DNA of 64,000 nucleotides from an uncultured Actinomycetes bacterium (lineage in GTDB: Bacteria; Actinomycetota; Acidimicrobiia; Acidimicrobiales; CAVTQP01). The first letter of the stretch is position 1, and the number at the start of each line of letters is the position of its first letter. The stretch covers positions 134,159 through 198,158 of the forward strand of contig CAVTQP010000001.1 in the NCBI GenBank assembly GCA_963736925.1. The letters run 5' to 3'. Below are positions 30,170 through 31,738 of the stretch, piece by piece. The notes below the pieces were generated by a model. It worked only from the letters and a program-made list of their open reading frames with translations. It did not search any database and was not told the origin of the DNA. The position numbers and the translations under genes were made by a program.

Positions 30170-31738
30170 CTAGTCGCCGGCGACAACCCCCCGGAACCCC
30201 ACCAGCTTTGCTAACGCCTCCCAGTGCCGAGGGTGCGGCGCCTTACCGCGTCGAATCTCCGACGCCGTGTGGGTGCTCAGCCCCGTAGCGGCTGCAATCT
30301 CAGCGCACTTGAACCGCTGAAGCCCGGGCCAGATCGACGCCTCCCAGTCGGACGGATCGAAGCCAAGCGCCCGCGCCTGAGCGGCCTTGGTTGCGGCCAG
30401 GGCAGCCGAGATTGACGCCGCCCAACGCGCCGCGTGGATGGATCTTGTCCGGCCTTCTTCGCCCGTTCCCGCCCCTTTGCGGCAGCTAGGCGACGCTGCT
30501 CGCGAAAACAGTCGGGGCACCATGTCCGCGTGTGGTGGGCCAGCTCGACGCCACAGCCCGCGCACTGCGGCGTGAGGGGCAGCCGCGCTTGTGAACCGTT
30601 GGTTCCTCGTGCCTCGCGGGTATCGACAGGGGATTGCGGGCTCGCCTGGTAGCCCGGTCAGCGGAGTGCGCTTCGCAATGGGCCTCCTGCTGGAGTCGGC
30701 AAAAGCGTGTGCCACTGCTTCGGCATGCGGCGCCACGGCCTTGCCCCACCGGGGCATGAGGCTGGTGAGGTGGTGGGTCAGGGGAGCGAGCACGCGGACG
30801 GACCAGTCAGGCCGCTCCACAAAGGCCCGCTTCGAGAAAACGTGTCCACCCACCAGCTCGATGACGAAGGCGTCAATCTCGGGCCGGATGGGCTCCATTA
30901 GGTCAAGGGCAAGAGCCGCCTGGTCCCGGTCGTCTACGTGCATGATCCCGATTCCCGGGTACAAACGGAGGGCCAACGCCGCCTGTCGGCATTCAACCTC
31001 GCGCAGCCGGTAGCAGTAGTTGAGCAGGGCGTTTATCGGGTCAGCCGCAAGGCGGGGGCTGTTGTTGCCCGCCAAGGGGGACCGTCGGCCGCTAAAGCGT
31101 GTGAACCGCTCCGGGACCCGGCTTCGGGTCGGAAACGCCATCGCCACCCGCCCCGGCCATGCTCCCCAGTACGCGGCCGACGCCGCGGCTTCGATCTGGC
31201 GTAGGTCCTCGATCGTCTCCGCTGTCCGCGCCACTTGTTCGAGGTCGGTCAGCGTGGGCACCAGATCCGGCACTTCCAGCAGCTCACCAGCCACCCGGGC
31301 TTGCCCGGCGATCTTCTCCCCGATCAACTGGTGGGCGATAGAGGTGGCCAGCTCGGGCGGTGCCATGGCCTGGGTGCGGCGGAGTCGACCGTCGTCCACC
31401 CAGGGGGTGGCGGAGGAAACCAGCGTGTGGCCTTCCCGGTCGATCGCCACCATGGCGATTCCGGCCGCCTCGCACCACTTGAGGGCATCGAAGCTGACGA
31501 CCCCCGCCCCGCCGGTTTGAAGGATGAGTCGGCGCAGCTCATGGCCTACCCGCGGGTATCGCCGGTGGCGCCGAGTGAGCCCGATCCCATCGGCAAGCTC
31601 CAGGTGGCCCCCGTCAACGCGGACGGAGCACCCATACCCCTCGACTGTGGCCACCCCGCCAGCCGCACCCATGGAGTACGTCTCCGTTAGAGCGTTTTGA
31701 ACCTCTGCCCGGTCTTGCGCGCTCAGCGCCACAGCCAA
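30170..31738 (-). CDS. cas1: Cas1-family integrase (casposase) with C-terminal HTH
   Basis: 522-aa uninterrupted ORF. The N-domain is LELADG..RRLILQTGGAGVVSFDALKWCEAAGIAMVAIDREG. The catalytic-core order is QIEAAASAAYW (E), PINALLNYCYRL, GIGIMHVD (H) and ALDLMEPIRPEID (acidic). The C-terminal HTH is AEIAAATGLSTHTASEIRRG. Confidence 0.85.
   Translation of the reverse strand: MAVALSAQDRAEVQNALTETYSMGAAGGVATVEGYGCSVRVDGGHLELADGIGLTRRHRRYPRVGHELRRLILQTGGAGVVSFDALKWCEAAGIAMVAIDREGHTLVSSATPWVDDGRLRRTQAMAPPELATSIAHQLIGEKIAGQARVAGELLEVPDLVPTLTDLEQVARTAETIEDLRQIEAAASAAYWGAWPGRVAMAFPTRSRVPERFTRFSGRRSPLAGNNSPRLAADPINALLNYCYRLREVECRQAALALRLYPGIGIMHVDDRDQAALALDLMEPIRPEIDAFVIELVGGHVFSKRAFVERPDWSVRVLAPLTHHLTSLMPRWGKAVAPHAEAVAHAFADSSRRPIAKRTPLTGLPGEPAIPCRYPRGTRNQRFTSAAAPHAAVRGLWRRAGPPHADMVPRLFSRAASPSCRKGAGTGEEGRTRSIHAARWAASISAALAATKAAQARALGFDPSDWEASIWPGLQRFKCAEIAAATGLSTHTASEIRRGKAPHPRHWEALAKLVGFRGVVAGD

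What the first reader, a model, noticed from the sequence alone, without database searches (positions are those of the whole stretch)
30170..31738. Solo Cas1 with C-terminal HTH, with no CRISPR array and no cas2
Seen: the 522-aa ORF is uninterrupted and has the Cas1 catalytic-core motif order (E in QIEAAASAAYW, H in GIGIMHVD, acidic residue in DLMEPIRPEID). It has an Arg/Ala-rich linker and a terminal HTH. No repeat-spacer array and no Cas2-sized partner occur anywhere in the 64 kb. An RHH gene is transcribed divergently from it. Established knowledge: casposases are Cas1 proteins that often carry a C-terminal HTH. Inference: the integrase is functional and has been retained while the rest of the element decays.
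Basis: partly seen in the sequence, partly recalled or inferred. Interest (0 to 1): 0.6.

Follow-up and report, generated by a model that had tools for sequence, protein, structure and literature searches.

The report
Damaged casposase in a dead casposon
The ORF is the Cas1-type integrase of a decayed self-replicating transposon (a casposon). Its polymerase gene next door is a wreck, and the integrase gene stays open only because two frameshifts cancel out, so this is an ordinary relic rather than a working solo Cas1.

Summary
The 522-codon ORF at 30170-31738(-) is real. It is a Cas1 homologue with the catalytic residues in place (E183, H267, D279, E282) and a C-terminal HTH. I found no CRISPR array in the window and no cas2 next to it.

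It is not an intact gene. About 57 homologues carry a conserved zinc ribbon (CxxCG...CxxC) between the Cas1 domain and the HTH. In the window that ribbon is encoded in another reading frame. The "Arg/Ala-rich linker" is out-of-frame read-through between two compensating frameshifts. The Cas1 domain also has five substitutions at positions that are invariant in all 57 relatives.

Two kb away, divergently oriented, lies a family-B DNA polymerase pseudogene (33724-36903). It has at least 6 frame switches and about 10 in-frame stops, and it keeps the CDTDS motif and a Cas1-like C-terminal HTH.

Intact relatives have the same Cas1/PolB layout, 31-390-nt terminal inverted repeats (GGGATAGGAGATAGG...) and 14-bp target-site duplications, so they are casposons of the bacterial (family-3-like) type. 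The window has no recognisable repeats or duplications.

Verdict: an immobilised casposon remnant. The casposase outlived the polymerase but is now damaged. It is a new member of a known kind, of low to moderate interest.

The parts
30170..31738 (-). Casposase (Cas1-family) ORF of 522 codons. It is open but not in the ancestral frame throughout.
   Evidence: The best solved-structure matches are casposase 6OPM and A. fulgidus Cas1 4N06.
30644..31666 (-). Cas1 catalytic domain (aa ~25-365), in frame. E183, H267, D279 and E282 are kept. Five unique substitutions: W212F, G258R, D260Y, R273Q, G312W.
   Evidence: Alignments. HMM positions 5-365 match in the ORF frame. pLDDT is mostly above 85.
30412..30636 (-). 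Zinc ribbon and the segment after it, encoded in the frame one base upstream of the ORF frame. The four Cys codons lie at 30508-30564. The ORF reads this stretch out of frame as the 'Arg/Ala-rich linker'. The first frameshift lies somewhere in 30590-30655 and the second near 30425-30440.
   Evidence: (29.2 bits, E=6.7e-11). pLDDT is below 50 for ORF residues 366-427.
30194..30367 (-). C-terminal HTH domain (aa ~458-515), back in the ORF frame.
   Evidence: Family-conserved ATGLS...RxG...PHPRHW segment. HMM positions ~448-526 match in the ORF frame. pLDDT is 88-97.
32011..32241 (+). 76-aa ORF, possibly a ribbon-helix-helix protein, co-oriented with PolB and divergent from Cas1. Its GC3 is only 0.60. 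Whether it belongs to the element is uncertain.
   Evidence: NikA-like hit E=6.5e-4, below the Pfam cutoff. Codon-position GC. It has no counterpart among the conserved core genes of relatives.
33086..33199 (+). Faint remnant of the small gene that lies upstream of PolB in a relative (L001).
   Evidence: tblastn with the 192-aa protein of L001, E=0.006. This is weak evidence.
33724..36903 (+). Family-B DNA polymerase pseudogene. The frame order is 0,2,0,1,0,2,0 and there are about 10 in-frame stops. Exo I (DTETT), motif B (KIFANAGSYG), motif C (CDTDS at 35504-35518, with a stop 3 codons upstream) and KRY are still readable.
   Evidence: The family is a PolB: 15 of 24 members hit PF03175. The model of a relative matches phi29 and other PolBs.
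36544..36663 (+). C-terminal HTH of the PolB remnant, related to the HTH of the casposase.
   Evidence: BLASTP comparison of the two window segments: 30% identity over 40 aa, E=5e-6. HTH Pfam hits.
32000..38500 (.). Low-GC tract (0.51-0.62 against about 0.65-0.69 around it) with few long ORFs. This is the decayed body of the element. True ends were not found.
   Evidence: No terminal inverted repeat or target-site duplication was found by pattern, profile or self-comparison.

Best explanation
The ORF is the casposase gene of an old, immobilised casposon of the bacterial (family-3-like) type. The element sits in the chromosome of an Acidimicrobiales-like actinobacterium.

In intact relatives the element is 12-16 kb and bounded by terminal inverted repeats that start GGGATAGGAGATAGG. 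It is flanked by 14-bp target-site duplications that usually end in TTGAC. It carries a divergent pair of operons: a Cas1-zinc ribbon-HTH casposase, and a PolB (motif C CDTDS) with a related C-terminal HTH.

By analogy with characterised casposases, the inferred mechanism is this. The casposase binds the element's ends through its DNA-binding C-terminus and joins their 3' ends to target DNA 14 bp apart. The element's polymerase then copies the element.

In the window this machinery is dead:
- The polymerase has at least 6 frameshifts and about 10 stops.
- The terminal repeats are unrecognisable.
- The casposase gene has a frameshift pair (net effect one base lost, then one gained, about 200 nt apart) that replaces the zinc ribbon with out-of-frame residues, plus five substitutions at otherwise invariant positions.

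Shown: the homology, the lesions, the family anatomy, and that Cas1 is less decayed than PolB. Inferred: Cas1 stayed under constraint for a time after PolB died, was hit more recently, and is now non-functional or nearly so as an integrase.
For: - Cas1 identity and catalytic residues.
- Zinc ribbon in another frame. Disordered 'linker' in the model.
- The window has 7 singleton changes at positions invariant in 57 relatives. No other member, however divergent, has more than 3.
- PolB pseudogene.
- The family is a PolB.
- The same divergent Cas1/PolB layout is found in 65 of 86 related loci.
- Terminal inverted repeats and 14-bp target-site duplications are found in 10-11 intact relatives.
- None are found in the window.
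- Published casposon traits match. Family 2 has a C-terminal HTH on both Cas1 and PolB, and family 3 AceAut-C1 has Cas1-ZBD-HTH (PMC4046053). The PolB_CDTDS group includes a casposon PolB (PMC7544198). M. mazei casposons make 14-bp duplications (PMC4779613).
- Decayed copies are common in the family: 35 of 80 loci have a fragmented Cas1 and/or PolB.
- Long housekeeping ORFs such as PurL (737 aa, full-length against homologues) argue that the assembly is not riddled with indel errors.
Against: - The frameshifts compensate, so the catalytic domain and the HTH are still made as one protein. This is what selection to keep the HTH would produce, although chance gives it roughly 1 time in 2-3.
- There is no stop codon in 1.57 kb, against about 10 in the neighbouring PolB.
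- GC3 of the Cas1 domain (0.79) is host-like (PurL 0.82), while PolB is 0.655.
- The ribbon's four Cys codons are all still intact in their own frame, so the damage is recent.
- One relative (P0068) lacks the ribbon through an in-frame deletion next to an open 969-aa PolB, so loss of the ribbon may not be lethal to function.
- The Cas1-minus-PolB GC gap (0.107) is only just outside the range seen in 23 intact relatives (-0.01 to +0.10). It is therefore weak evidence for differential decay.
Confidence: 0.65

Rival explanations
1. The ribbon-less Cas1-HTH protein is still functional. It could act as a trans-acting casposase for other copies, or it could be an exapted host protein (for example in DNA repair, or in exclusion of incoming casposons) kept by selection after the polymerase died.
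For: - A compensating frameshift keeps the HTH in frame.
- The catalytic tetrad is intact.
- There are no stops, against about 10 in PolB.
- GC3 is host-like.
- Fewer near-invariant residues are lost than in PolB: 14% against 31%, Fisher P=0.018.
- A natural ribbon-less relative, P0068, exists.
Against: - There are five unique replacements at positions invariant in 57 relatives. Two are in the GLDPGLG loop before the catalytic His.
- The zinc ribbon is kept by nearly all aligned relatives.
- There are no terminal repeats in the window.
- The protein cluster is a singleton and the nearest relative is only 42-44% identical, so there is no evidence of conservation of this variant.
- P0068's own element has no detectable terminal repeats.
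- The Cas1-intact/PolB-broken pattern in relatives (19 loci against 6 for the reverse) is roughly what gene length and my Cas1-biased sampling predict.
Confidence: 0.22
2. The two frameshifts are sequencing or assembly errors. The real gene encodes a normal Cas1-zinc ribbon-HTH casposase that may still be active.
For: - The ribbon is perfectly readable in its own frame with all four Cys and no stop.
- The two indels cancel each other.
Against: - Long conserved genes in the window show no frameshifts, for example PurL at 737 aa, full length. The indel error rate is therefore low, and two errors within about 230 nt are unlikely.
- The five unique substitutions in the catalytic domain and the stop-ridden PolB are not indel artefacts.
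- The NCBI protein record (P0001) has the same sequence.
Confidence: 0.06
3. It is a CRISPR adaptation Cas1 serving an array and cas genes located elsewhere in the genome.
For: - It passes the generic Cas1 equivalog model.
- One relative's element (L022) carries a type I-C-like effector cassette and an array.
Against: - All subtype-specific Cas1 models score far below their cutoffs.
- It has the ZnR-HTH casposase architecture, and a PolB partner in 65 of 86 loci.
- Relatives have terminal inverted repeats and target-site duplications.
- There is no cas2 or array beside it or in 85 of 86 related loci.
- The best structural hit is a casposase.
Confidence: 0.03

Closest known systems
[quoted passage not shown] 2014, PMC4046053)
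   Same: - Bacterial host.
- Cas1 with both a zinc-binding domain and an HTH fused to its C-terminus.
- Adjacent PolB, and a small conserved HTH protein.
- Terminal inverted repeats and target-site duplications in intact relatives.
- Not linked to cas2 or to arrays.
   Different: - The window copy is a relic: PolB is a pseudogene, the ribbon is frameshifted, and there are no inverted repeats or duplications.
- No HNH endonuclease was detected in the two conserved small genes of relatives.
- I had no reference family-3 sequences, so clade membership was not tested by phylogeny.
Family 2 archaeal casposons and their casposases (A. boonei AciBoo-C1; M. mazei casposase, PDB 6OPM)
   Same: - 6OPM is the best structural match.
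- There is a C-terminal HTH on Cas1 and a similar HTH at the C-terminus of PolB.
- PolB motif C is CDTDS, as in the PolB_CDTDS group that contains the A. boonei casposon polymerase.
- Target-site duplications are 14 bp with a conserved terminal motif, as reported for M. mazei.
   Different: - The hosts are archaeal.
- There is no zinc ribbon between Cas1 and the HTH.
- The core includes HNH and HEAT-HTH genes, which are not seen here.
- Sequence identity to 6OPM is only about 19-20%.
CRISPR adaptation Cas1 (for example A. fulgidus Cas1 4N06, type I-C Cas1c)
   Same: Same fold and the same catalytic Glu/His/Asp/acidic tetrad. It passes the generic cas1 model.
   Different: - No Cas2 partner and no array.
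- Extra ZnR-HTH module.
- PolB partner.
- All subtype models score far below their cutoffs.
Cas1-solo group 1 (Makarova/Krupovic; described in PMC4046053)
   Same: A stand-alone cas1 homologue outside CRISPR loci.
   Different: Group 1 proteins lack the full set of catalytic residues. This protein and its family keep them all.
Pipolins (piPolB elements, common in Actinobacteria; PMC5695915)
   Same: Integrated, self-synthesising elements that encode a divergent, phi29-like PolB.
   Different: - piPolBs have KTRG instead of KxY and an altered motif C. Here KRY and DTDS are canonical.
- Pipolins use tyrosine or serine recombinases, not Cas1.

Membership tests
Casposon | Cas1-family integrase with the full catalytic set (E. 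coli E141/H208/D218/D221 equivalents) | tested here: met
   E183, H267, D279 and E282 fall on invariant columns. Pfam and TIGRFAM Cas1 hits are above cutoff. The gene nevertheless carries a frameshift pair.
Casposon | Family-B DNA polymerase gene in the same element | tested here: met
   Present 2 kb away as a pseudogene. Intact in relatives. PolB identity is supported by PF03175 hits in 15 of 24 members and by fold matches to phi29 and other PolBs.
Casposon | Terminal inverted repeats | tested here: not met
   Window: no match to the family's repeat motif or profile and no credible inverted pair. Relatives: 31-390-nt repeats in 11 elements. The window copy is therefore a remnant, not a complete casposon.
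Casposon | Target-site duplications flanking the element | tested here: not met
   Window: none found. Relatives: exact 14-bp duplications in 10 elements whose two flanks could both be read.
Casposon | No functional link to cas2 or a CRISPR array | tested here: met
   Window. Related loci: 85 of 86 have no array. The exception is L022, where the array is cargo.
Casposon families 2/3 | HTH fused to the C-terminus of Cas1, and a similar HTH at the C-terminus of PolB | tested here: met
   The trait is described in PMC4046053.
Casposon families 2/3 | HNH endonuclease gene in the core | tested here: inconclusive
   The two small genes conserved in relatives gave only weak HTH hits and no HNH. The 121-aa gene of L001 had a faint DUF968 hit. 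Profile or structure comparison was not done.
Casposon family 3 | Cas1 falls in the family-3 clade in a Cas1 phylogeny | not tested
   The reference sequences (AceAut-C1, NitAL212-C1, HenMar-C1, StrAlb-C1) were not available in the tools. Assignment rests on bacterial host and the Cas1-ZBD-HTH architecture.
CRISPR adaptation module | Cas1 paired with Cas2 next to a repeat-spacer array | tested here: not met
   No cas2 or array in the window. The rest of the genome could not be examined.
Cas1-solo group 1 | Incomplete catalytic residue set | tested here: not met
   All four catalytic residues are present. Definition from PMC4046053.
Pipolin | piPolB with a KTRG motif, plus a tyrosine or serine recombinase | tested here: not met
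   KRY and CDTDS are canonical and the integrase is Cas1. Definition from PMC5695915.

The most novel reading that the evidence does not exclude
The casposase was kept by the host long after the casposon's polymerase and ends had died. It now works as a ribbon-less Cas1-HTH protein with a cellular role. That would make it a living example of the first step (capture of a casposase by the host) in the proposed route from casposons to CRISPR adaptation modules.
Probability: 0.12. Interest if true: 0.65.

Novelty: new member of a known kind. Interest (0 to 1): 0.33.

Why it matters
For the window itself, it matters little. This is one more dead transposon, and it shows that in GC-rich DNA an open reading frame is not proof of an intact gene.

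The value lies in what the relatives show.
- This Cas1-zinc ribbon-HTH plus PolB_CDTDS element is a large, active-looking clade of bacterial casposons. It occurs in at least 543 species-level genomes of Acidobacteriota, Actinomycetota, Chloroflexota and other phyla, including cultured Tunturiibacter strains. The literature I could read speaks of 'only a handful' of bacterial casposons (PMC4779613).
- The clade has a clear terminal-repeat consensus, a 14-bp duplication and a TTGAC target preference.
- One member carries a CRISPR-Cas effector cassette.

Together these offer experimentally tractable bacterial material for studying the link between casposons and CRISPR.

Tried and rejected
Not possible. 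The nearest homologue is 42-44% identical and the protein cluster is a singleton.
- **Finding the source contig by exact protein look-up.** Not on record. The window's genome was not among the best 80 loci from the genome scan. The host was inferred only from PurL, which is about 70% identical to Acidimicrobiales MAGs.
- **Terminal repeats and duplications in the window.** The motif search gave one chance-level hit. The nhmmer profile gave nothing below E=8. A seed-and-extend search for inverted repeats with flanking duplications found none. The 28-nt inverted pair 29403/38835 has no duplication and is of chance quality.
- **GC difference between Cas1 and PolB as proof of differential decay.** I first thought this was strong. 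I downgraded it because intact relatives already show Cas1 minus PolB of up to +0.10.
- **Co-descent of the window's Cas1 and PolB, tested with the PolB beside the nearest Cas1 relative (L087).** Uninformative. All PolBs are 31-37% identical to the remnant.
- **Sequence searches of the PolB family against PDB, single sequence and profile.** No hits. Pfam on family members and fold search were needed instead.
- **Plasmid collection.** Only ordinary type I-C Cas1 hits, and no member of this family.
- **Whether the ribbon-less relative P0068 sits in a demonstrably active element.** No terminal repeats were found, so it does not settle whether the ribbon is dispensable.
- **Other repeat candidates near relatives' Cas1 (L007, L039, L055, L084).** These are plain tandem repeats, not CRISPR arrays.
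- **Pfam on six-frame translations given as DNA references.** I repeated it with X-masked plus-strand frames, which gave no hits.
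Full report
**1. The observation.**
The ORF at 30170-31738 on the minus strand exists as described: 522 codons with a TTG start. It is a Cas1 homologue. Pfam Cas_Cas1 gives E=1.6e-34 over residues 75-314. The generic TIGR00287 cas1 model scores 92 bits against a cutoff of 71.7, while every subtype-specific Cas1 model is far below its cutoff.

The best matches among solved structures by sequence are A. fulgidus Cas1 (4N06) and the Methanosarcina mazei casposase (6OPM). 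An AlphaFold2 model built on the family alignment has mean pLDDT 81.7. It matches 6OPM best by Foldseek (E=6.7e-16, TM up to 0.80 on the target), followed by 4N06 and CRISPR Cas1 proteins.

These correspond to the E141/H208/D218/D221 set of E. coli Cas1 quoted in PMC4046053.

No CRISPR array is present, judged by Tandem Repeats Finder, Rfam and a k-mer array scan. None of the small ORFs beside the gene hits Cas2 or any other Pfam family. The divergent 76-aa ORF at 32011-32241 has only a sub-threshold RHH (NikA-like) hit.

**2. The ORF is open but the gene is not intact.**
A database search found 76 homologues of 460-640 aa. The closest are only 42-44% identical but align over about 95% of the length. 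Nearly all aligned members have a zinc ribbon, CxxCG-x(10-12)-CxxC(W/F)P, between the Cas1 domain and the C-terminal HTH. The window ORF has none.

Translating the other frames shows the ribbon in the frame one base upstream...LPLTPQCAGCGVELAHHTRTWCPDCFREQRRLAAAKGRERAKKAGQDPSTRR.... I built a family HMM and searched the three frames:
- The ORF frame matches HMM positions 5-365 and about 448-526.
- The other frame matches positions 366-447 at 29.2 bits, E=6.7e-11, at window 30412-30636.

So there are two frameshifts. The first lies somewhere in 30590-30655 and the second near 30425-30440, and their effects cancel.

This fits the flip in codon-position GC in codons 351-450 and pLDDT below 50 for residues 366-427.

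The frameshifts are unlikely to be assembly errors. Long housekeeping ORFs in the window are uninterrupted; for example PurL is 737 aa and full length against its homologues.

**3. Other signs of relaxed constraint in Cas1.**
In a 58-sequence alignment the window protein has 7 singleton changes at columns where all 57 other members agree. Five are in the catalytic domain: W212F, G258R, D260Y, R273Q and G312W. G258R and D260Y lie in the GLDPGLG loop just before the catalytic His. The other two are ribbon cysteines. No other member has more than 3, including members that are equally divergent overall.

**4. The neighbour is a dead polymerase.**
In relatives, an approximately 1000-aa protein with no recorded Pfam hit lies near Cas1. 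It carries Exo I DTET, motif B K..F....SYG, motif C FCDTDS and KRY.

The evidence that this family is a family-B polymerase:
- 15 of 24 members hit PF03175, DNA_pol_B_2.
- A model of one member (pLDDT 82, pTM 0.80) matches phi29 DNA polymerase and then dozens of other family-B polymerases.
- The CDTDS motif is the signature of the PolB_CDTDS group, which includes the A. boonei casposon polymerase (PMC7544198).

In the window the gene lies at 33724-36903(+), divergent from Cas1 and 2 kb away. It is broken into pieces in frames 0,2,0,1,0,2,0, with about 10 in-frame stops. Motif C survives as ...LGEA*VFCDTDSMALVATEE.

Its C-terminal HTH is related to that of Cas1 (E=5e-6). That trait is described for family 2 casposons. 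A faint remnant of a small gene that lies upstream of PolB in the relative L001 is at 33086-33199.

**5. What the family is.**
A scan of species-representative genomes found at least 543 loci encoding relatives. The hosts include Acidobacteriota, Actinomycetota, Chloroflexota, Eremiobacterota, Gemmatimonadota and Proteobacteria. Cultured hosts include Tunturiibacter psychrotolerans, T. gelidiferens and Tsukamurella soli.

Across the 86 related loci then in hand (the 80 returned by that scan plus six from contig look-ups), 65 have the PolB within 10 kb. Most have the same divergent layout as the window.

In 11 elements with both genes open I found terminal inverted repeats of 31-390 nt. They share the terminus GGGATAGGAGATAGG... 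and delimit elements of about 11-16 kb. Ten of these elements have exact 14-bp target-site duplications. In nine elements, including L041 where only one flank could be read, a TTGAC abuts one of the two inverted repeats.

The conserved core is Cas1, PolB and two small genes upstream of PolB, one of them a weak HTH. No HNH was detected.

These are casposons by the published definition. The Cas1-ZBD-HTH architecture matches the family-3 element AceAut-C1, and 14-bp duplications with a conserved terminal motif match M. mazei casposons. Family-3 membership was not tested by phylogeny.

**6. State of the window copy.**
No terminal repeat or duplication could be found by motif, profile or self-comparison. 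GC drops from about 0.66-0.69 in Cas1 to 0.51-0.62 between 32000 and 38500.

Cas1 is less decayed than PolB:

| Measure | Cas1 | PolB | Source |
|---|---|---|---|
| Disabling lesions | 2 in 1.57 kb | at least 16 in 3.2 kb (binomial P about 0.035) | |
| Near-invariant residues lost | 14% | 31% (Fisher P=0.018) | |
| GC3 | 0.79 | 0.655 (PurL 0.82) | |

Two cautions apply. Strictly invariant residues are lost at similar rates, 7 of 27 in Cas1 and 6 of 36 in PolB. Intact relatives already have Cas1 up to 0.10 richer in GC than PolB, so the composition argument is weak.

The ribbon still has all four Cys codons and no stop in its own frame, so the frameshifts are recent relative to the decay of PolB.

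Decayed copies are common in the family. Of 80 loci, 23 have both genes open, 19 have only PolB fragmented, 6 have only Cas1 fragmented and 10 have both fragmented. My sampling was biased towards good Cas1 matches.

**7. Interpretation.**
The best reading is an immobilised casposon remnant. Its casposase outlived its polymerase, probably under some constraint for a while, and has now begun to decay. I put 0.9 or more on "casposon remnant" and about 0.65 on "no longer a working integrase".

The main rival, at about 0.2, is that the ribbon-less Cas1-HTH protein still does something. The compensating nature of the frameshifts, the lack of stops and the existence of a naturally ribbon-less relative (P0068) keep this alive. 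Against it, there is no conservation evidence, no substrate ends, and there are substitutions next to the active site.

Assembly error (about 0.06) and a CRISPR role elsewhere in the genome (about 0.03) are unlikely. Neither can be excluded from a 64-kb window.

**8. Context.**
The host is an Acidimicrobiales-like actinobacterium: PurL is about 70% identical to those of Acidimicrobiales MAGs, and it lies on the same 441,650-bp NCBI contig as the Cas1.

The remnant lies in a region with other mobile-element genes and apparent pseudogenes. These include a T4SS coupling protein at 19837-22185 and a TraG-like P-loop ORF. It is flanked by ordinary genes: SRAP, a cyclase-YHS protein, an ABC ATPase and a two-component system.

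**9. By-product.**
One relative, L022 (a Terriglobia MAG), is an intact casposon with perfect 147-nt inverted repeats and a 14-bp duplication. Between the casposase and the right inverted repeat it carries cas5, a cas8c-like gene, cas7, cas3 (HD plus helicase) and a 6-7-repeat array with a type I-C-style repeat. There is no cas2, no cas4 and no second cas1.

The same cassette, about 91% identical in DNA, occurs in metagenomic contigs without a casposase. In one of them it lies next to a large serine recombinase. It therefore appears to be mobile cargo. A 2024 review of CRISPR in mobile elements mentions casposons only as ancestors of the adaptation module.

**10. Verdict.**
This is a new (decayed) member of a known kind. 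Interest is 0.33 for the finding itself; the family-level by-products are more interesting than the window.

Noticed in passing
L022 (JAIQEY010000065.1, Terriglobia MAG) 369-13784; cassette 7574-13540: An intact relative casposon (147-nt perfect inverted repeats, 14-bp duplication AAATCCCATTTGAC) carries cas5, a cas8c-like gene, cas7, cas3 and a 6-7-repeat CRISPR array (GTCGCGCCCTACGCGGGCGCGTGAATTGAAAC) just inside its right inverted repeat. The casposase is the only Cas1-family gene, and there is no cas2 or cas4. The same cassette (~91% DNA identity) occurs in metagenome contigs L089-L091 without a casposase, beside a large serine recombinase in L089. Only 1 of 86 casposon loci has it.
   Followed up: partly
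L007, L020, L022, L023, L025, L027, L030, L031, L037, L041, L050 (element ends): This casposon clade has a conserved inverted-repeat terminus, GGGATAGGAGATAGG..., and exact 14-bp target-site duplications. In 9 of 11 elements a TTGAC abuts one inverted repeat (either end). This looks like a target preference resembling a -35 hexamer. Insertions are not consistently next to tRNA genes.
   Followed up: partly
Genome-contig scan, loci L007-L086: At least 543 species-representative genomes encode this casposase family, mostly soil Acidobacteriota, Actinomycetota, Chloroflexota, Eremiobacterota and Gemmatimonadota. They include cultured Tunturiibacter psychrotolerans X4BP1, T. gelidiferens X5P2 and Tsukamurella soli. 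The casposon papers I could read describe only a handful of bacterial casposons.
   Followed up: partly
P0004, P0007, P0011, P0016, P0021, P0022 (619-639 aa): A subgroup of the casposases has the C-terminal HTH module (…ATGLS…R.G…PHPRHW…) duplicated in tandem.
   Followed up: no
window 27466-28177 (+): Overlapping ORF pieces in three frames read like one frameshifted gene. One piece contains VHLDLHPLNVL, which from memory resembles a kinase/phosphotransferase motif. Neither Pfam on the first piece nor a PDB sequence search of the stitched pieces gave a hit, so both its identity and its pseudogene status are unconfirmed.
   Followed up: partly
window 10291-10365 and 19837-22793: A tRNA-Lys is followed some 9 kb later by a T4SS coupling protein (782 aa) and an overlapping ORF with TraG/VirB4-like P-loop hits. 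This suggests an integrative conjugative element, possibly also damaged, near the casposon remnant. A cytochrome P450 gene lies at 18611-19840.
   Followed up: no
window 32000-33500: The lowest-GC stretch (0.51-0.58) has a strong excess of G over C on the plus strand (GC skew +0.21 to +0.24) without a matching AT skew. I have no explanation for it.
   Followed up: no
window 39062-44722: Three large ORFs (588, 396 and 597 aa) have no Pfam family apart from a weak MarR-type HTH at the start of the first. They sit between the remnant and the ABC/two-component genes. Function unknown.
   Followed up: no
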